64,000 bases of DNA. It comes from Escherichia phage HK6. The position numbers were made by a program, and so were the translations under genes. Position 1 is the first letter of the stretch; every line of letters starts with the position of its first letter. The notes under the pieces are model-generated. The model had not been told where the DNA came from. It worked only from the letters and a program-made list of their open reading frames with translations, and did no database searches. Shown piece by piece: positions 18,227 to 56,564 of this stretch. The stretch lies in the sequence record PP724615.1. One strand, given 5' to 3'.

Positions 18227-18313
18227 TGGTGCTGGGCACAGGATTCGAACCTGCAATGGGATTACTCCTCCTGATTACAAATCAGGTGCATTCAACCATT
18301 CTGCCAACCCAGC
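18227..18313 (-). tRNA. tRNA, anticodon TGT by eye, with long variable arm (87 nt)
   Basis: Anticodon arm CCTGA-TTTGTAA-TCAGG; T-arm GCAGG-TTCGAAT-CCTGT; variable-arm hairpin; isotype uncertain. Confidence 0.6.
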
Positions 18314-23116: not shown

Positions 23117-23230
23117 GCTTGTTTCCTCAGTTATTAATGAAAATGGTATCTGTGGCTGAATTCGATGTCAGCAATGATAGCTGGTTGGCTACCGGTTTAC
23201 TTAACTCTACACAGAATTTGGCGGGCCGTG

Positions 23231-23313
23231 TAGGATTCGAACCTACGTTGTCTTTCGACACGGATTAACAATCCGCCGCCAAACCGCTTGGCTAACGACC
23301 CTAAATTTATATT
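23231..23313 (-). tRNA. tRNA, anticodon GTT (Asn-type) with unusually long variable arm (83 nt)
   Basis: Acceptor GGGTCGT/ACGGCCC; D-stem GCCA/TGGC; anticodon arm GCGGA-TTGTTAA-TCCGT; 13-nt variable arm; T-arm GTAGG-TTCGAAT-CCTAC. Confidence 0.6.
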
Positions 23314-25940: not shown

Positions 25941-26510
25941 TTAGAAATTTAGCTTCATAGCAAGAAAATTTTTCAAGTTTTCGGTAGACATCTCATCCAC
26001 ATCTACAGGAGAAACAAATCCATTTAATTTTCTAGCAAATTTTTCACCAGCAGGATCGTTGTCCCCGACAGCTACTAATTTAAAAGGTAATAATTTCAAT
26101 TGCTTTAATAACGCTTTTCCTGGAGAAGAACCCAACATTGCCAGGGCTGGGTAACCAGCATTATGTAACGCAACTGCCTTAAATACAGATTCAGCGATCA
26201 ATACTACTTTTTCATCTCCATTGAGAGTTTCTAGTCCCCATACACACTGGGTAGTAGAATAAGTAAAGTATTTAGCTTCAAAGGGGCACTTACCATGACC
26301 TTTTGGAGCAGAAGGATTGTAAGTTTGATAGCCCCTCAACATCCCAGAGAAGTCATACAACGGGACAGTTAGCCATCCTTCCGGACTTAACCAGCAATGA
26401 TATTTATCTGTATCAAATCCTCTAGATAAGAGGTGCTGTGTTAGCTCATCAACATTCATATTTGGTTCCTCTCTCAAATTTATAGATATATTATACAGAG
26501 AATTTAGCAT
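25941..26510 (-). CDS. Toprim-domain protein (189 aa)
   Basis: VAVGDNDPAGEKFARKL resembles the Toprim DxD acidic motif; no zinc-binding primase domain. Confidence 0.5.
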   Translation of the reverse strand: MLNSLYNISINLREEPNMNVDELTQHLLSRGFDTDKYHCWLSPEGWLTVPLYDFSGMLRGYQTYNPSAPKGHGKCPFEAKYFTYSTTQCVWGLETLNGDEKVVLIAESVFKAVALHNAGYPALAMLGSSPGKALLKQLKLLPFKLVAVGDNDPAGEKFARKLNGFVSPVDVDEMSTENLKNFLAMKLNF

Positions 26511-26634
26511 TCAAGCAATCAAATTTTTTAACTTTTTAGAGGAGAATCATAGGGCACTTAAGGGTAGCAGATAAGTGGTGAGGACCAAAATTTGTGACCC
26601 CACTAAAAATCCGGGGGCAATTTTTAAAGATCCC

Positions 26635-26663
26635 TTGACATTTTCGCTGGGGTAGTGTAAAGT
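26635..26663 (+). promoter_or_regulatory. sigma70-like promoter (TTGACA, 17 bp, TAAAGT) for the plus-strand operon
   Basis: Perfect -35 hexamer, weaker -10; shares the 13-mer TTGACATTTTCGC with the promoter at 55633. Confidence 0.5.
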
Positions 26664-26725
26664 ATATGTTATGGATGAGTGATCAAAGAGACACACATTT
26701 TCTATATACTAGGAGGTGTCAAAAA

Positions 26726-27718
26726 ATGACAGAAGAAGTAGCTAAGAGTCCTGAGACCGTCGCTAGCGTTGCAGCAGAACTGCACCGTCACGAGGAATCA
26801 GATAAGAAAAAGTGGGAGAAGGTCAGAGCCTACGAAGAAAAACATCGTGAACACGATGAAGATGATAAAGAAGATGACGATGATGAGCATTGTCATAAAT
26901 ATGGAAAACATAAAATGCAAGAACCAGTAAACGTATTTACTAGTGGCTTCCCTGGCCTACTGGGTGGTTACCCAGCAAACGCAGGTGCTTTCGGTGGTGA
27001 AGGTATGGGACTATTCGGAGCTATCCTAATCGGTGCTCTATTAACAGGCGGATTCGGTGGATTCGGTGGATTCGGTGGACGTGGTATAGTTGGTGATGGT
27101 ACCGCAGTTGATGCAGTACTTCAGAACCAAGATACCGCTAGTATTCTAGCAGCTATTAACACTACTCGTACAGAAGCTAATCAGGGTACTGGAGCTGTTT
27201 TAAGCGCAGTTAACAATGGTTTTAGCCAGACATCCCAAAACCAGAGCCGTGATACTCAGTCTGTACTAACTACGATCTATGGTACGGGTGCTAATCTGTC
27301 TAATCAAATCTGCCAGGAAACTCGCAACGTTATTCAGGGTCAGTTCGATCTTTCTCGCCAGATTGATCAATCTTTCGCAGCTAACCAGATAGCTCGTGCA
27401 CAAGATAAGTTTGATTCTGCACAGATCGCTTTCCAGCAGACTTTACAAACTAATAACCAGTTTGCCGCTGTTCAGGCTCAGATGTGTGCTAACCAGAACT
27501 CTCTGGAACGTCAGATTGCTGAATGTTGCTGTGAACTTCAGACTGCGATCGCTGGTGTAACTACTGCGCGTATCCAGGATGAGTTAGATGCGTGTCGCCT
27601 ACGTGAAGCAATCGCTGCGGGTAGCGGTGCTAACGGTCAGGTAATTAATCAAATCGCTTTAAGTCTTGGTACTATCACTCAGACTCTGGCTGGTCTGCAG
27701 GCTAAACTGCCGGCTTAA
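26726..27718 (+). CDS. Low-complexity membrane protein, acidic N-terminus, GGFGGFGGFGG segment, Q/T/N-rich C-terminus (330 aa)
   Basis: Start at the ATG 8 nt after AGGAGG (track ORF begins 26666); hydrophobic glycine-zipper GMGLFGAILIGALLTGGFGGFGGFGGRG; no family recognised. Confidence 0.65.
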   Translation: MTEEVAKSPETVASVAAELHRHEESDKKKWEKVRAYEEKHREHDEDDKEDDDDEHCHKYGKHKMQEPVNVFTSGFPGLLGGYPANAGAFGGEGMGLFGAILIGALLTGGFGGFGGFGGRGIVGDGTAVDAVLQNQDTASILAAINTTRTEANQGTGAVLSAVNNGFSQTSQNQSRDTQSVLTTIYGTGANLSNQICQETRNVIQGQFDLSRQIDQSFAANQIARAQDKFDSAQIAFQQTLQTNNQFAAVQAQMCANQNSLERQIAECCCELQTAIAGVTTARIQDELDACRLREAIAAGSGANGQVINQIALSLGTITQTLAGLQAKLPA

Positions 27719-27739
27719 TATTAAGGGGAGGAGCCCATT

Positions 27740-28156
27740 ATGAGTAAATATGGTTTTGTAAATAACGGACTTAATCAAAGTATGGGCTCCCAGCAGCCCA
27801 TTCCGGGTCTGGATAACCCCTACTTACAACAGTTGCAACAGCGTTTAGCAGAAGCGCAACAGATGCAGCAACAACTCCAGCAAAACCCTGGAAGTGTAAG
27901 TCCTATGCAAATGATGCAGCAAATGAGCGGGCAGTCGCAAATGCCTCAACAAATGCAGCAACAGATTCCGCAGCAGCAAGTTCAGCAACAAACCCAACAA
28001 CCGCAGGTTTCTGCGGAAGGACAGGCAGTACTAGCCCTTTTCGAAGACTTCGCAAAGACAGAGGATGGAAAACAGCTTGTATCACTTATGGGTAAGTTTA
28101 ATAGCTTCTGCCAAAGCCAAGTTGCAAAAGCTCAAAATGGTGGTAATAACTCCTAA
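27740..28156 (+). CDS. Gln-rich low-complexity protein (138 aa)
   Basis: RBS GGGGAGGAG; about 40 percent Q in the central region. Confidence 0.6.
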   Translation: MSKYGFVNNGLNQSMGSQQPIPGLDNPYLQQLQQRLAEAQQMQQQLQQNPGSVSPMQMMQQMSGQSQMPQQMQQQIPQQQVQQQTQQPQVSAEGQAVLALFEDFAKTEDGKQLVSLMGKFNSFCQSQVAKAQNGGNNS

Positions 28157-28165
28157 GGAGGAATT

Positions 28166-28360
28166 ATGTGTTGCAGAAAATCTGTTTCGTGCTGCCCAAT
28201 GCCTGTAGCACGTTGTTGCTCTCCAGCAATGTTTACGCAAATACCGGCGTTCAATCCGTTTGCCTTTAAGCCTACTCTTATCCTGCCCCCTAGAGTAGAT
28301 TTTCAGTCAAGATTGGCCTCCCGTATGGGTGGTTGCTGTAACAAGAGTATATGGTTCTAA
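28166..28360 (+). CDS. Small Cys-doublet protein (64 aa, four CC pairs)
   Basis: RBS AAGGAGG; MCCRKSVSCCPMPVARCC...GGCCNKSIWF. Confidence 0.55.
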   Translation: MCCRKSVSCCPMPVARCCSPAMFTQIPAFNPFAFKPTLILPPRVDFQSRLASRMGGCCNKSIWF

Positions 28361-28375
28361 GGAACCAAACAATAA

Positions 28376-28406
28376 AGCCCCTAAGTCTTTCGACTAGGGG
28401 CTTTTC
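28376..28406 (+). terminator. Rho-independent terminator ending the plus-strand operon
   Basis: GCCCCTAG..CTAGGGGC stem followed by TTTTCTTTT. Confidence 0.75.
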
Positions 28407-28426
28407 TTTTATCTTAAATACAGAAA

Positions 28427-28455
28427 AGCCCGCGCTTTCGGAGAAAACGCGGGCT
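28427..28455 (-). terminator. Rho-independent terminator downstream of SPFH gene
   Basis: AGCCCGCG..CGCGGGCT stem followed on the minus strand by TTTTCTGTATTT. Confidence 0.7.
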
Positions 28456-28479
28456 TGGTTCGAAGATTACGTGTAACTA

Positions 28480-29427
28480 TTACTTGTTACGCATATCCAT
28501 AATCATTTGACCATCATAGCCAGTGCCAACTACAGTCTGAGGTACACCACCTTGATACTTCTGAGCACGAATCATTTCAACTTCCAGTTGCTTCCAGCGA
28601 ATCATCTCAGGAGTAATGGTACGTTGCAATGCGGCGTTAGCTTCAGCTTCTTTCTTAGCTGCGTACAGTTTAGCATCTGCGTCACGTTCATTAGCAATAG
28701 CTTGGTTGTTGCGAGCCTCACGATCTGCTTCTGCTTGTTTAACTTTTTGCTGTGCTTCCTGTTCAACGCGAGCGAGTTCAGCTTTCGCAGCATTAACTTG
28801 TTCTTCACGAACTTTGGTATTCTGTACCTGTTCCATGATTACCGGTGGCAAAGTAATATCCTGAAGAAACACCTGCTTAACTGTGTAACCATATGGGCGT
28901 GCATACTCTTCAACTTCCTGTTGAATTGCAGTTTGCAATTGAGCCTGAATTTTAGCATCAAATAAATCTTGTGCTTTAGGTACAGACTTACCAAACTCAC
29001 GAATAGTAGACAGTAATTTTTCAGTTACATATTTGTCTAACGCTTGATCCTGAGTACCTGCGTTAATACGGTTAATCGGTGCCTTAGAACCATCAAACTG
29101 CAACATAACAGTCAAGTCAACAGTGGATTTAAACTTGTCCTGGCTAGGAACCTGAAGTTTATCTAATTTTACAGCAATATCTTTTGTACTAAAAGTATCA
29201 AAAGATGCAAACGGGTTTACAAGATGGAAACCAGGCAATACTGGATTAGGGTCTACTTTACCCAGGAATGTTTGGGTTTTAACCGTACCATCAGAAACAA
29301 TAGTATATGAATTAAAAGCTAGGATTAAACCTGCTAAACCAACTACAGCACCAATACCCCAACGTTTAATAGTACGAATTACTTTCTGCTCAGAAGTCAG
29401 TTCTTTCATATTTTTAGTATTAAACAT
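28480..29427 (-). CDS. SPFH/band-7 (stomatin/prohibitin-like) membrane protein (315 aa)
   Basis: N-terminal TM, SPFH-like core, long Ala/Gln/Glu-rich coiled coil. Confidence 0.7.
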   Translation of the reverse strand: MFNTKNMKELTSEQKVIRTIKRWGIGAVVGLAGLILAFNSYTIVSDGTVKTQTFLGKVDPNPVLPGFHLVNPFASFDTFSTKDIAVKLDKLQVPSQDKFKSTVDLTVMLQFDGSKAPINRINAGTQDQALDKYVTEKLLSTIREFGKSVPKAQDLFDAKIQAQLQTAIQQEVEEYARPYGYTVKQVFLQDITLPPVIMEQVQNTKVREEQVNAAKAELARVEQEAQQKVKQAEADREARNNQAIANERDADAKLYAAKKEAEANAALQRTITPEMIRWKQLEVEMIRAQKYQGGVPQTVVGTGYDGQMIMDMRNK

Positions 29428-54610: not shown

Positions 54611-55582
54611 ATGACTAATGTAAAAGACTTTATTAAACGTTGCCAAGAAGCGTATTACCAGGGAATGTCTTTAATCTCTGACGAAGAATATGATCGTCTG
54701 ATTAAAAGATTTCCGTTAGAAGAAGAGATCGGGCCTAAGGGCGATATTCCACATCTGTATCGTATGTATTCTTTACAGAAAGTTTATTATAATCGTGGAG
54801 ATAAACCTCCATTTAACCCATTAGGTCAGGTAGAAACTGATAAGTTAGATGGTTGTGCGATTTCTCTGTTATATATTAATGGAGAATTTGTTCAAGCACT
54901 AACTCGTGGTAATGGTATTCTAGGGAATGATGTCACAAGCAACGTAAGATTGCTGAACATCCCTAAAAAGATTTCCCAAAAAGTACCTACTCAAATCACT
55001 GGTGAAGTTCTAATTACAAAAGAAGTAGAAAATAAACGTAACTTTGCCTCTGGTGCTATTAACCTCAAAGATAGTGATGATTTCGTACAACGTATCGGAG
55101 AAGGTGGTTTAATCTTCGTTGCATACGGTATCCAGTGTTCTGCTGAATCTGTAGGTATTACAGAAGCATATTTAAAAGATATGCTTTGGCTAGAGAATGA
55201 GGACTTCTTAACAGTTGTTAATGTGCGTTCCTTCTTTAAATGGATTCCGACGGACGGTAAAGTTGTTCGTATTAATGATAACAACAAATTCTTTCGTGAA
55301 GGCTGGACTAATAAATTTCCTCGTGGCGCATTCGCTATTAAAGAAGATGAAGAAGGCGAAATTACAACTCTTACTAAAGTTGAATGGCAGGTAGGGGCTT
55401 CTGGTAAAGTAACTCCAGTTGGTTATTTCGAACCGGTAATTATTGATGATGCTACAATTGTTAAGGCGACTCTTAATAACGTTGATTATATTAACTCTCT
55501 TGATCTAGAGATCGGTTGCCAGATTCGAGTAATTCGTGCTGGTGGTGTGATCCCGTGCATAGTAGAGCGAGTATACGATTAA
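54611..55582 (+). CDS. NAD-type DNA ligase, N-terminal part (adenylation and OB, 323 aa)
   Basis: LigA-like N-terminus YYQGMSLISDEEYDRL; adenylation lysine motif KLDG. Confidence 0.75.
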   Translation: MTNVKDFIKRCQEAYYQGMSLISDEEYDRLIKRFPLEEEIGPKGDIPHLYRMYSLQKVYYNRGDKPPFNPLGQVETDKLDGCAISLLYINGEFVQALTRGNGILGNDVTSNVRLLNIPKKISQKVPTQITGEVLITKEVENKRNFASGAINLKDSDDFVQRIGEGGLIFVAYGIQCSAESVGITEAYLKDMLWLENEDFLTVVNVRSFFKWIPTDGKVVRINDNNKFFREGWTNKFPRGAFAIKEDEEGEITTLTKVEWQVGASGKVTPVGYFEPVIIDDATIVKATLNNVDYINSLDLEIGCQIRVIRAGGVIPCIVERVYD

Positions 55583-55632: not shown

Positions 55633-55661
55633 TTGACATTTTCGCCGCTTAGGTATATACT
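55633..55661 (+). promoter_or_regulatory. sigma70-like promoter (TTGACA, 17 bp, TATACT) inside the ligase split
   Basis: Perfect -35; shares TTGACATTTTCGC with the promoter at 26635. Confidence 0.55.
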
Positions 55662-55754: not shown

Positions 55755-55784
55755 ATTTATATAAATTGATAAGGAAGAAATTTG

Positions 55785-56564
55785 ATGAAAATCGAAATTC
55801 CAACACAATGTCCCTCTTGTGGTTCTAAGCTAGATCTTGTCAACGGACAATTATTCTGTAGGAATAAGTCCAACTGTCCAGCGCAATCAAGTAAGTTAAT
55901 TGAGAACTTCTGTTCAAAAATGAAGTTAAAGGGCTTTGGCCCAAAAACTATTGAGAAGCTGGAGCTGACGAAGATTTCAGAACTATTTTACCTAACCGAA
56001 GAAGATTTGGTTAGAGCCGTGGGTAGCAAGGTTGCCGCTAAGTTAATTAGCGAATTAAATACTAAAGTTCGCGGAGGCATTGACTTTGGTTCAGTTCTCG
56101 GTTCTTTAGGAATCCCTCTAATTGGAGAGGTTGCAGCAAAGAAATTATCCCAAAATTGCACTAGCTTCCACGATGTGAAGGCTGACGGCAAGGCTGGAGA
56201 AAACTATAAAGCCTGGCTAAATTCCCCACAAGGCAAGGATGTTATCGAACTACCGTGGAAATTCTCAACTGGTATTAAGGGCACTAAAGCCGACATCATC
56301 ATTACAGATGAGTTAGTTGCCCAGCCAAATGGAATCGCGGTATGTATTACCGGATCTTTGCAAGATTTTGCAAATCGAACGGATGCAACAAACTATTTAG
56401 AGAGTCTAGGATATACGGTTAAGAAATCCGTTACCAAAGACGTCAAATACCTAATCTGTGAGGATGAATCAAAACGTTCTTCCTCATCTTATAAGAAAGC
56501 CGAAACGAATGGGATAGAAATCCTGTCGATTAAAGAACTATTGGAGAAAAATAATAATGTCTAA
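55785..56564 (+). CDS. NAD-type DNA ligase, C-terminal part (Zn finger, HhH, BRCT, 260 aa)
   Basis: Four-Cys zinc finger CPSCGSKL...CRNKSNCPAQ, HhH-like segments, BRCT-like C-terminus; ATG 8 nt after AAGGAAG. Confidence 0.75.
   Translation: MKIEIPTQCPSCGSKLDLVNGQLFCRNKSNCPAQSSKLIENFCSKMKLKGFGPKTIEKLELTKISELFYLTEEDLVRAVGSKVAAKLISELNTKVRGGIDFGSVLGSLGIPLIGEVAAKKLSQNCTSFHDVKADGKAGENYKAWLNSPQGKDVIELPWKFSTGIKGTKADIIITDELVAQPNGIAVCITGSLQDFANRTDATNYLESLGYTVKKSVTKDVKYLICEDESKRSSSSYKKAETNGIEILSIKELLEKNNNV

What the first reader, a model, noticed from the sequence alone, without database searches (positions are those of the whole stretch)
26580..28460. Plus-strand three-gene operon of low-complexity and Cys-doublet proteins embedded in the minus-strand tRNA region
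Three tightly spaced plus-strand ORFs (26726-27718, 27740-28156, 28166-28360) each have strong Shine-Dalgarno sites, sit behind a TTGACA-type promoter rather than the TTGCTT early-promoter module used elsewhere, and are bracketed by clean terminators on both strands. The products are atypical for a replication/tRNA region: an acidic N-terminus followed by a GGFGGFGGFGG glycine-zipper membrane segment and a long Q/T/N-rich tail; a poly-Gln protein; and a 64-aa peptide with four CC doublets. I recognise no family. This could be a membrane-associated assembly, a superinfection-exclusion or anti-defence module, or a metal-binding peptide system.
Basis: seen in the sequence. Interest (0 to 1): 0.8.

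Follow-up and report, generated by a model that had tools for sequence, protein, structure and literature searches.

The report
Mobile three-gene cysteine-motif phage cassette
The three plus-strand genes are real and are the long-annotated but uncharacterised phage T5 genes T5.077-T5.079; they form a dispensable cassette with its own promoter and terminators that moves between unrelated phages, encodes a predicted membrane-anchored helical rod plus two small cysteine-bearing partners, and has no known function.

Summary
Observation confirmed. ORFs 26726-27718, 27740-28156 and 28166-28360 are under purifying selection. They have strong ribosome-binding sites, a TTGACA-17-TAAAGT promoter unlike the window's 16 TTGCTT-type promoters, and convergent terminators.

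They equal T5.077/078/079, annotated in T5 with promoter P12 and a bidirectional terminator, all "hypothetical". The cassette is dispensable. The viable T5 st0 mutant lacks it, CRISPRi-ART scores all three "Not Fit", and about half of T5-like phages have lost it by a 1,759-bp deletion that keeps the last 32 nt of ORF3.

The whole trio recurs in an unrelated Pseudomonas phage and in a contig with a lambda-like lysis cassette, so the unannotated 64-aa CC-doublet ORF is a real gene.

ORF1 belongs to a large uncharacterised phage superfamily (645 clusters; PHROGs 8119/16490/9288, including crAss-like "spike/fiber" proteins). Its members share a Gly-rich hydrophobic segment, a predicted ~155-residue helix and a near-invariant CCC.

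No Pfam, NCBIfam, PADLOC, PDB or fold match. It is not the spanin pair, which T5-likes encode elsewhere.

Function unresolved. Favoured: an accessory complex at the cell envelope. Membrane topology is undecided.

The parts
26635..26663 (+). Sigma-70-type promoter TTGACA-17-TAAAGT, equivalent to T5 'promoter P12'. The bases after the -10 read ATATG, 4 of 5 matches to the ATATT that PMC7472727 reports for T5 early promoters.
   Evidence: 78-98% invariant columns across five diverged phages
26664..26725 (+). 5' leader with ribosome-binding site AGGAGG (26711-26716). It is unusually conserved, and no significant RNA structure was found.
   Evidence: 60-nt windows overlapping the leader (26640-26759) have 85-98% invariant columns, against 0.5-0.8 in most ORF1 windows; fold z -0.77
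26726..27718 (+). ORF1 (330 aa) = T5.077, PHROG 8119. N-terminal helix plus an acidic/His-rich stretch, a Gly-rich hydrophobic segment, then a long helical Q/N/T/A-rich domain ending in a highly conserved C-terminus.
27002..27079 (+). Predicted transmembrane / glycine-zipper segment (residues 93-118, GMGLFGAILIGALLTGGFGGFGGFGG).
   Evidence: Kyte-Doolittle 19-residue maximum 1.72; G114 conserved in at least 90% of 111 superfamily members
27524..27532 (+). CCC motif (Cys267-Cys269), the signature of the superfamily.
   Evidence: each of the three Cys conserved in at least 90% of 111 representatives; seen in crAss-like, eiAU-like and T5-like members
27740..28156 (+). ORF2 (138 aa) = T5.078, PHROG 7894. 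A conserved N-terminal helix (YLQQLQQRLAEAQ) and a conserved C-terminal domain (E.Q..F..T.DGK.L..KFN..CQ, invariant Cys124), joined by a poly-Gln/Met linker of variable length.
28166..28360 (+). ORF3 (64 aa) = T5.079. A Pro-rich peptide with CC doublets. Conserved core: CC-P-x-PV-x-(R/Q)-CC ... G-x-CC. No signal peptide or lipobox. Usually not called by genome annotators.
28374..28412 (+). Rho-independent terminator of the operon (hairpin plus U tract), annotated in T5 as an efficient bidirectional terminator.
28426..28456 (-). Convergent terminator of the minus-strand SPFH/band-7 gene. It contains GCGC at the position where T5 carries its major 32.6% nick.
26570..28328 (.). The exact segment missing from T5-like phages that lack the cassette. 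They keep both flanks and the last 32 nt of ORF3.

Best explanation
This is an autonomous, dispensable accessory cassette of T5-like phages (T5.077-079) whose three products work together as one membrane-anchored complex. Shown: the genes are real, conserved and insulated by their own promoter and terminators; they are inherited and transferred as a trio; they are non-essential in the laboratory. Predicted: ORF1 has one Gly-rich hydrophobic segment and a helix of about 155 residues (about 23 nm if straight). Inferred: ORF1 sits in the inner membrane with its charged 92-residue N-domain in the cytoplasm. There it docks ORF2 and ORF3, which have no export signal and occur only where ORF1 carries this long N-domain. 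The rod projects into the periplasm and oligomerises. It is locked through the near-invariant CCC by inter-chain disulfides. Its very conserved C-terminal tip contacts peptidoglycan or the outer membrane. The favoured role is an auxiliary action on the envelope of the infected cell, such as help with lysis or envelope remodelling, or exclusion of other phages. That role would be redundant on laboratory hosts because T5-likes already have a holin, endolysin and Rz/Rz1-type spanins.
For: Real genes and one unit. Identity with T5.077-079, including the annotated promoter P12 and terminator. Dispensable: the viable st0 deletion mutant lacks T5p066-079; CRISPRi-ART scores all three 'Not Fit' (PMC11879866 supplement); 222 records carry ORF1 against 434 that match the 2.2-kb query, which includes the flanks; the loss is a clean 1,759-bp deletion that leaves an ORF3 remnant. 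Trio co-inherited in unrelated backgrounds: Pseudomonas phage RSP, where it lies divergent from the terminase gene; contig L023, where it lies divergent from a holin/lysozyme/Rz cassette; ORF3 pairwise matches 37% (E 1e-10) and 39% (E 9e-8). Membrane segment. Long helix: AlphaFold with 111 sequences, mean pLDDT 71.6, helix 173-327 at about 85-93 between residues 190 and 300, N-helix 9-41 above 90. CCC conserved in at least 90% of members. Superfamily members often lie next to lysis genes or just after tail genes. The long N-domain and ORF2/ORF3 co-occur only in the PHROG 8119 branch.
Against: No experiment bears on function, location or timing. The positive-inside rule across 111 superfamily members points the other way: 45 have more Lys/Arg just after the hydrophobic segment and 7 just before it, and the N-tails are net acidic. 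That result favours N-out/C-in. The hydrophobic segment is borderline in many members (median Kyte-Doolittle maximum 1.46). No significant heptad periodicity was found. ORF2 and ORF3 each have invariant cysteines yet would sit in a different compartment from ORF1's CCC. The nearness to lysis genes is anecdotal, and the phage already has a full lysis set.
Confidence: 0.35

Rival explanations
1. Same trio, opposite topology. The short or acidic N-tail is outside and the long helix with its CCC is on the cytoplasmic face of the membrane. There ORF1's CCC, ORF2's invariant Cys and ORF3's three invariant CC doublets, plus the His/Asp/Glu-rich stretch, jointly bind a soft metal (Zn, Cu, Ni, Fe-S). 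The result is a membrane-tethered metal-thiolate scaffold, or a metal- or redox-handling device.
For: Positive-inside statistic 45 versus 7, and acidic N-tails. ORF2 and ORF3 lack export signals and carry invariant Cys. His-rich expansions recur (HHYHHHHHEH in L005/L006, P0008, P0013; HRHEHGDMDHAVEHKHKHKH in P0112). Vicinal Cys pairs and His-rich tracts are typical of soft-metal binders such as MerT/MerA and Hpn (my own knowledge, not tested here).
Against: The T5-type N-domain has 92 residues, 36 of them charged, with a confident helix, which is hard to translocate without a signal. No metal-binding family is matched. The evidence is compositional only.
Confidence: 0.25
2. ORF1-type proteins are a new kind of envelope-spanning lysis protein that works like a spanin. 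They would be anchored in the inner membrane, have a rod spanning the periplasm, and (in the crAss type) engage the outer membrane through an aromatic C-terminal tail. The T5 cassette would be a three-part variant that backs up Rz/Rz1.
For: Architecture of transmembrane segment, helical rod and cysteines. A 155-residue helix is about 23 nm, close to the width of the periplasm (my own inference). Members lie beside a holin or endolysin in cr4_1, cr272_1 and L023. crAss-type tails end in Gly/aromatic/Cys-rich ...(S/G)xW(G/N/S).
Against: ORF3 has no signal peptide or lipobox. T5-likes already carry annotated Rz/Rz1-like spanins, and L023 has a PF03245 Rz-type gene. The st0 mutant still forms plaques. 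T5-type ORF1 lacks the aromatic tail. The topology statistic disagrees.
Confidence: 0.12
3. ORF1-type proteins are virion fibres or spikes, as the crAss-like genome annotations say ('outer capsid protein/viral fiber', 'spike protein/glycoprotein').
For: Those annotations. Position just after tail or tail-fibre genes in several phages. The long helix is compatible with a trimeric fibre. Weak, non-significant profile hits to HA2 and coronavirus HR1.
Against: In T5-likes the gene lies in the deletable accessory/tRNA region, is absent from half of the relatives and from the viable st0 mutant, and its knock-down has no fitness cost. The PDB hits have E of 0.39 or more. A hydrophobic Gly-rich segment is unusual for a fibre.
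Confidence: 0.05
4. Low-complexity, condensate-type host-takeover proteins. The poly-Gln ORF2 and the GLFG/GGF-rich ORF1 would form a phase-separated compartment.
For: Composition only.
Against: The poly-Gln tract is lost without harm in L015 and P0181, while the ends of ORF2 are invariant. The GGF stretch is part of a hydrophobic segment that looks like a transmembrane helix.
Confidence: 0.03

Closest known systems
T5 genes T5.077, T5.078, T5.079 (NC_005859 38064-39671; PHROG 8119, PHROG 7894, singleton)
   Same: Orthologues: ORF1 is 78.9% identical in protein to T5.077 by tblastn. Same gene order, same promoter position (P12), same bidirectional terminator, and a neighbouring nick site.
   Different: Nothing of substance. 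The window is an SPC35/HMD-7-type Tequintavirus rather than T5 itself (97.7% DNA identity). Function is unknown in both.
Two-component spanins (lambda Rz/Rz1 type)
   Same: ORF1 resembles an i-spanin in outline: one N-proximal transmembrane segment, a long helical domain and conserved cysteines. ORF3 is small and Pro-rich, like o-spanins.
   Different: No sequence similarity. ORF3 lacks a signal peptide and lipobox. ORF1 is about twice as long and has a 92-residue N-domain. The phage has its own Rz/Rz1-like pair next to the dNMP kinase gene, about 1.5 kb beyond the holin and endolysin. The cassette is dispensable.
Phage 'morons' (autonomous accessory transcription units)
   Same: Own promoter and terminators, opposite orientation to the neighbours, present or absent among close relatives, shared between unrelated phages.
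   Different: Morons were defined in temperate phages and are expressed from the prophage. This phage is virulent. Here the absence is a secondary deletion, not a missing insertion.
crAss-like phage proteins annotated 'spike protein/glycoprotein' or 'outer capsid protein/viral fiber' (PHROG 16490) and Edwardsiella phage eiAU gp08 (PHROG 9288)
   Same: Same superfamily by profile search: a Gly-rich hydrophobic segment, a long Q/N-rich helix and the C-x-CCC-E motif.
   Different: They have short N-tails, many have an extra C-terminal tail (PNTVPVxYPNLTAV plus a Gly/aromatic/Cys-rich end), and they have no ORF2 or ORF3 partners. Their names rest on remote resemblance, not on experiment.
Class I viral fusion proteins (influenza HA2, coronavirus S2)
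   Same: A Gly-rich hydrophobic peptide (ORF1 even contains GLFGAI, the start of the HA2 fusion peptide, from my own knowledge) followed by a long helix.
   Different: Profile hits are not significant (E 0.39-4.8). No fold match.

Membership tests
PHROG 8119 / PHROG 7894 (phage protein families of unknown function) | Full-length match to the family profile | tested here: met
   ORF1 E 1.7e-205 over 1-330; ORF2 E 2.4e-80 over 1-138; ORF3 matches no family
Two-component spanin | i-spanin: N-terminal transmembrane segment with a periplasmic helical domain | tested here: inconclusive
   Hydrophobic segment and long helix are predicted, but the topology is undecided
Two-component spanin | o-spanin: lipoprotein signal peptide with a lipobox Cys | tested here: not met
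   ORF3 starts MCCRKSVSCCPMP. Its Kyte-Doolittle maximum is 0.85, and it has no hydrophobic signal or lipobox
Two-component spanin | It is the phage's only outer-membrane disruption function, encoded in the lysis cassette | tested here: not met
   Rz/Rz1-like genes are annotated elsewhere in T5-like Sw2 and in Shivani. The cassette is deleted in viable T5 st0
Moron-like autonomous accessory unit | Own promoter and terminator, and a presence/absence polymorphism among relatives | tested here: met
   222 records carry ORF1 and 434 match the locus query
Moron-like autonomous accessory unit | Expression independent of the neighbouring operons (from the prophage, in the classical definition) | not testable with these tools
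   No expression data were found. The phage is virulent
Known anti-phage defence or anti-defence proteins (PADLOC models) | Profile match | tested here: not met
   No hit for ORF1-3
Metallothionein / Hpn-like metal-binding peptides | Cys (or His) clusters that bind metal stoichiometrically | not testable with these tools
   Composition fits (8 Cys in 64 residues; three invariant CC doublets), but there is no family match
Class I viral fusion protein | Significant sequence or fold similarity to HA2/S2-type heptad-repeat cores | tested here: not met
   E 0.39-4.8; no Foldseek hit at E of 0.001 or better
cAMP-dependent protein kinase catalytic subunit (label on ORF2 in some GenBank records) | Protein kinase domain | tested here: not met
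   No kinase family in Pfam or NCBIfam. The label appears and has no support

The most novel reading that the evidence does not exclude
The CCC-motif rod proteins (645 or more clusters, from T5-like to crAss-like phages) are a previously unrecognised, widespread class of phage envelope proteins. They would be a third architectural type of periplasm-spanning lysis or fusion device, or a thiol/metal-locked membrane rod. The T5.077-079 trio would be a mobile three-component version whose cytosolic Cys-doublet and Gln-linker partners regulate it.
Probability: 0.12. Interest if true: 0.8.

Novelty: new variant of a known kind. Interest (0 to 1): 0.5.

Why it matters
T5 is a model phage, and these genes have stayed "hypothetical" for twenty years. 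This work shows three things. They form a mobile trio that is inherited together. The 64-aa CC-doublet ORF that most annotators skip is a real gene. ORF1 ties three function-less PHROG families, including abundant human-gut crAss-like phage proteins, into one superfamily with a near-invariant CCC. Together these give a defined, genetically tractable entry point: a T5 deletion, or expression in E. coli. If the family acts at the envelope, in lysis, exclusion or metal/thiol chemistry, the answer would carry over to hundreds of uncultured phages. If it does not, the cassette is still one more dispensable accessory module in the deletable region of T5.

Tried and rejected
1. ORF3 as a detached copy of the Gly/aromatic/Cys-rich C-terminal tail of crAss-type members. 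The motifs look alike (GGCCNKSIWF versus GCCGNSLWG), but a tail profile scores ORF3 no better than 79 of 2000 shuffles, and the L023 ORF3 no better than 1775 of 2000. Not supported.

2. RNA element instead of, or on top of, ORF3. Synonymous divergence is low (dS 0.08-0.20 against 0.55-0.85 for ORF1 and ORF2), but the fold z-score is only -1.73. The best Rfam match, at 28337-28422, scores 32 bits against a gathering score of 114. Unexplained.

3. Structured 5' leader: z -0.77.

4. Heptad or hendecad periodicity in the rod: not significant.

5. First AlphaFold model, built with 33 close sequences: pLDDT 45.6, unusable. The deeper alignment gave 71.6, but the model is a bare helix. Foldseek against PDB and BFVD found nothing.

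6. ORF2-like domain next to distant ORF1 homologues: none, apart from a compositionally Gln-rich ORF in L008.

7. Homology searches with ORF3 and with the ORF2 C-terminal domain returned only close relatives.

8. Spanin, holin, kinase, defence and fusion-protein memberships were rejected; see the membership table.

9. Published expression or virion data for T5.077-079: none found.

10. The longer ORF1 reading from ATG 26666 (350 aa) was rejected in favour of 26726. That start has the AGGAGG site and matches the start annotated for T5.077 and for the other annotated homologues fetched.
Full report
WHAT IS THERE

The window is a T5-like phage (genus Tequintavirus). The region is 97.7% identical to Salmonella phages HMD-7 and SPC35. 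It lies among 22 minus-strand tRNA genes.

Each has a strong ribosome-binding site.

The promoter is TTGACA-17-TAAAGT at 26635-26663. The window contains 16 TTGCTT-N16-18-TAWAAT promoters where 0.21 are expected by chance, and the operon does not use one.

After ORF3 come two convergent hairpin terminators:
- plus strand, 28374-28404: -19.3 kcal/mol, z -5.2
- minus strand, 28426-28456: -24 kcal/mol, z -4.9

I found no terminator upstream of the promoter.

ARE THEY GENES

Yes. I compared the window with four phages that are 80-86% identical in DNA across ORF1 and ORF2.

| Gene | dN/dS |
|---|---|
| ORF1 | 0.15-0.19 |
| ORF2 | 0.10-0.26 |
| ORF3 | 0.12-0.45 (where computable) |

ORF3 keeps its frame and 89-97% of its residues. 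Most annotators do not call it.

ORF3 is unusual in one respect. Its synonymous divergence is low as well (dS 0.08-0.20 against 0.55-0.85 for ORF1 and ORF2). Its DNA is 87-97% invariant in sliding windows. RNA folding does not explain this (z -1.73). Mosaic recombination contributes: phage Sw2 is 95-99% identical in ORF2 and ORF3 but only 83% in ORF1.

The promoter and 5' leader are also highly conserved. Windows spanning 26610-26729 have 90-98% invariant columns.

WHAT IS ALREADY KNOWN

The operon is T5.077-T5.078-T5.079. The T5 record annotates all three as hypothetical proteins. It also annotates 'promoter P12', an 'efficient bidirectional rho-independent terminator' and the adjacent major DNA nick.

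ORF1 and ORF2 fall in PHROGs 8119 and 7894, both of unknown function. ORF3 matches no family. Pfam, NCBIfam, PADLOC and PDB sequence or profile searches give nothing significant for any of the three. The label 'cAMP-dependent protein kinase catalytic subunit' that some records put on ORF2 has no support.

A full-text search found no paper that discusses these genes. The exception is the CRISPRi-ART screen, whose supplement lists all three as 'unknown' and 'Not Fit' (PMC11879866).

DISPENSABLE AND MOBILE

The viable T5 st0 deletion mutant lacks T5p066-T5p079, which includes the cassette.

Among public phage genomes, 434 records match the 2.2-kb locus query, which includes the flanks, but only 222 encode ORF1. 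In phages without it (TrudiRoth, phiR2-01), window positions 26570-28328 are missing. The flanks are intact and the last 32 nt of ORF3 remain. The cassette is therefore ancestral, and a clean deletion removed it.

The complete trio also occurs in two unrelated backgrounds:
- The GC-rich, 63-kb Pseudomonas phage RSP, where it lies divergent from the terminase gene.
- A 24.8-kb contig (L023), where it lies divergent from a holin/lysozyme/Rz cassette.

A divergent T5-like contig (L015) has ORF1, ORF2 and, in the third position, an ORF that starts with MCC.

ORF3 of T5-likes aligns with the L023 copy at 37% (E 1e-10) and with the RSP copy at 39% (E 9e-8). Three CC doublets are invariant, along with PV and several Pro.

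In ORF2 an N-terminal helix and a C-terminal domain (E.Q..F..T.DGK.L..KFN..CQ) are invariant. The poly-Gln tract is a linker that is absent in L015 and P0181.

ORF1 BELONGS TO A LARGE SUPERFAMILY

A profile of ORF1 relatives was searched against 1.84 billion representative proteins. It finds 645 clusters at E of 0.001 or better and 141 at 1e-10 or better. Nearly all of the 150 listed are 200-370 residues long and match from the hydrophobic segment towards the C-terminus.

The hits join PHROGs 8119, 16490 and 9288, all of unknown function. They include:
- crAss-like phage proteins annotated 'spike protein/glycoprotein' or 'outer capsid protein/viral fiber'
- Edwardsiella phage eiAU gp08

In an alignment of 111 members, Cys267, Cys268, Cys269 and Gly114 are each conserved in at least 90%.

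AlphaFold with this alignment gives a mean pLDDT of 71.6. It predicts an N-terminal helix (9-41, pLDDT above 90), a short helix within the hydrophobic segment, and one continuous helix from 173 to 327 (pLDDT about 85-93 between residues 190 and 300). Fold searches return only unrelated long helices.

Many crAss-type members carry an extra tail: PNTVPVxYPNLTAV followed by a Gly/aromatic/Cys-rich end. ORF2-like and ORF3-like partners were found only in the branch that also has the long charged N-domain.

Superfamily genes typically sit just after tail genes or near lysis genes.

HOW IT PROBABLY WORKS

The following is shown: the unit is real, insulated, dispensable and mobile; the trio is co-inherited; cysteine motifs are invariant in all three proteins.

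The following is predicted: one hydrophobic Gly-rich segment in ORF1 (Kyte-Doolittle maximum 1.72) and a helix of about 23 nm.

The rest is inference. I favour N-in/C-out (confidence 0.35) for two reasons. The T5-type N-domain has 92 residues, 36 of them charged. That domain also co-occurs with the two signal-less partners, which suggests they meet it in the cytoplasm. The rod would then be periplasmic, the CCC would form inter-chain disulfides, and the conserved tip would reach the wall or outer membrane. The role would be an accessory one in lysis, envelope remodelling or exclusion.

The main counter-evidence is my own topology statistic. Across the superfamily, 45 members have more Lys/Arg after the hydrophobic segment and 7 have more before it, and the N-tails are acidic. 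That pattern favours a cytoplasmic rod. On that reading, the cysteines of all three proteins and the recurrent His-rich stretches would form a metal-thiolate complex on the inner face of the membrane (confidence 0.25).

A true spanin role is unlikely. ORF3 has no lipobox, and T5-likes have their own T-type holin, endolysin and Rz/Rz1-like pair. A virion-fibre role is unlikely in T5-likes because the cassette is dispensable.

Timing is unknown. The neighbouring divergent promoter P15A is early, and the bases after the operon's -10 (ATATG) nearly match the early consensus ATATT (PMC7472727). That is only a hint.

VERDICT

What is new here:
- the trio is a mobile module that is inherited together
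- the loss in about half of the relatives is a secondary deletion
- ORF3 is a real gene
- ORF1 belongs to a CCC-motif superfamily that reaches into crAss-like phages

Function remains open. I chose 'new variant of a known kind' for novelty because the cassette behaves like a known kind of element, an autonomous accessory unit encoding a membrane protein. Its proteins match no characterised family.

Noticed in passing
window 25941-26510 (-): A Toprim-type protein that GenBank calls 'DNA primase' (= T5.076). The CRISPRi-ART re-annotation lists it as 'subverts retron-mediated defense' and scores it Semi-Fit. It gives a PADLOC hit to an RT-associated DnaG-like DRT model (E 6e-7). The cassette therefore sits next to an anti-defence gene.
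   Followed up: partly
window 28426-28456: The minus-strand terminator hairpin contains GCGC at the position where T5 is annotated with its major 32.6% single-strand nick (consensus Pu-GCGC). The nick site and the terminator appear to overlap.
   Followed up: no
window 28480-29427 (-): SPFH/band-7 membrane protein (= T5.080, labelled 'lipoprotein'), convergent with the cassette. It is retained in phages that lost the cassette.
   Followed up: partly
window 28166-28360: ORF3 DNA is far more conserved than its neighbours (dS 0.08-0.20 against 0.55-0.85). Predicted RNA structure does not explain this. Recombination, an overlapping signal or codon constraint are possible causes.
   Followed up: partly
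window 26610-26729: The promoter and 5' leader have 90-98% invariant columns across phages whose coding DNA has dS of about 0.6, yet they have no significant fold. This may be an operator or a site for a regulator.
   Followed up: partly
window 6160-54307: There are 16 TTGCTT-N17-TATAAT promoters (0.21 expected by chance). All are on the minus strand up to 42.9 kb and all on the plus strand from 45.1 kb, which marks a divergence point of early transcription near 43-45 kb.
   Followed up: no
window 55633-55661 (+): A second promoter-like site shares TTGACATTTTCGC with the cassette promoter. It lies between two adjacent ORFs (54611-55582 and 55782-56564) that look like the two halves of a split NAD-dependent DNA ligase.
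   Followed up: no
L018 and L022 (crAss-like cr4_1, cr272_1): Downstream of the ORF1-family gene there is a conserved small beta-rich protein (PHROG 31654 in cr4_1). Further downstream is a coiled-coil protein full of in-frame TAG codons, in genomes that recode TAG. This may be the 'spanin' family of the stop-codon recoding preprint (10.1101/2021.08.26.457843).
   Followed up: partly
L007 (Salmonella phage Sw2) versus window: There is a mosaic breakpoint inside the cassette. ORF1 is 83% identical in DNA while ORF2 and ORF3 are 95-99% identical. Recombination therefore occurs within the operon.
   Followed up: no
window 18227-18313, 23219-23301: ARAGORN reports a tRNA-Thr of 87 nt and a tRNA-Asn of 83 nt. 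Both are longer than usual for these tRNA types.
   Followed up: no
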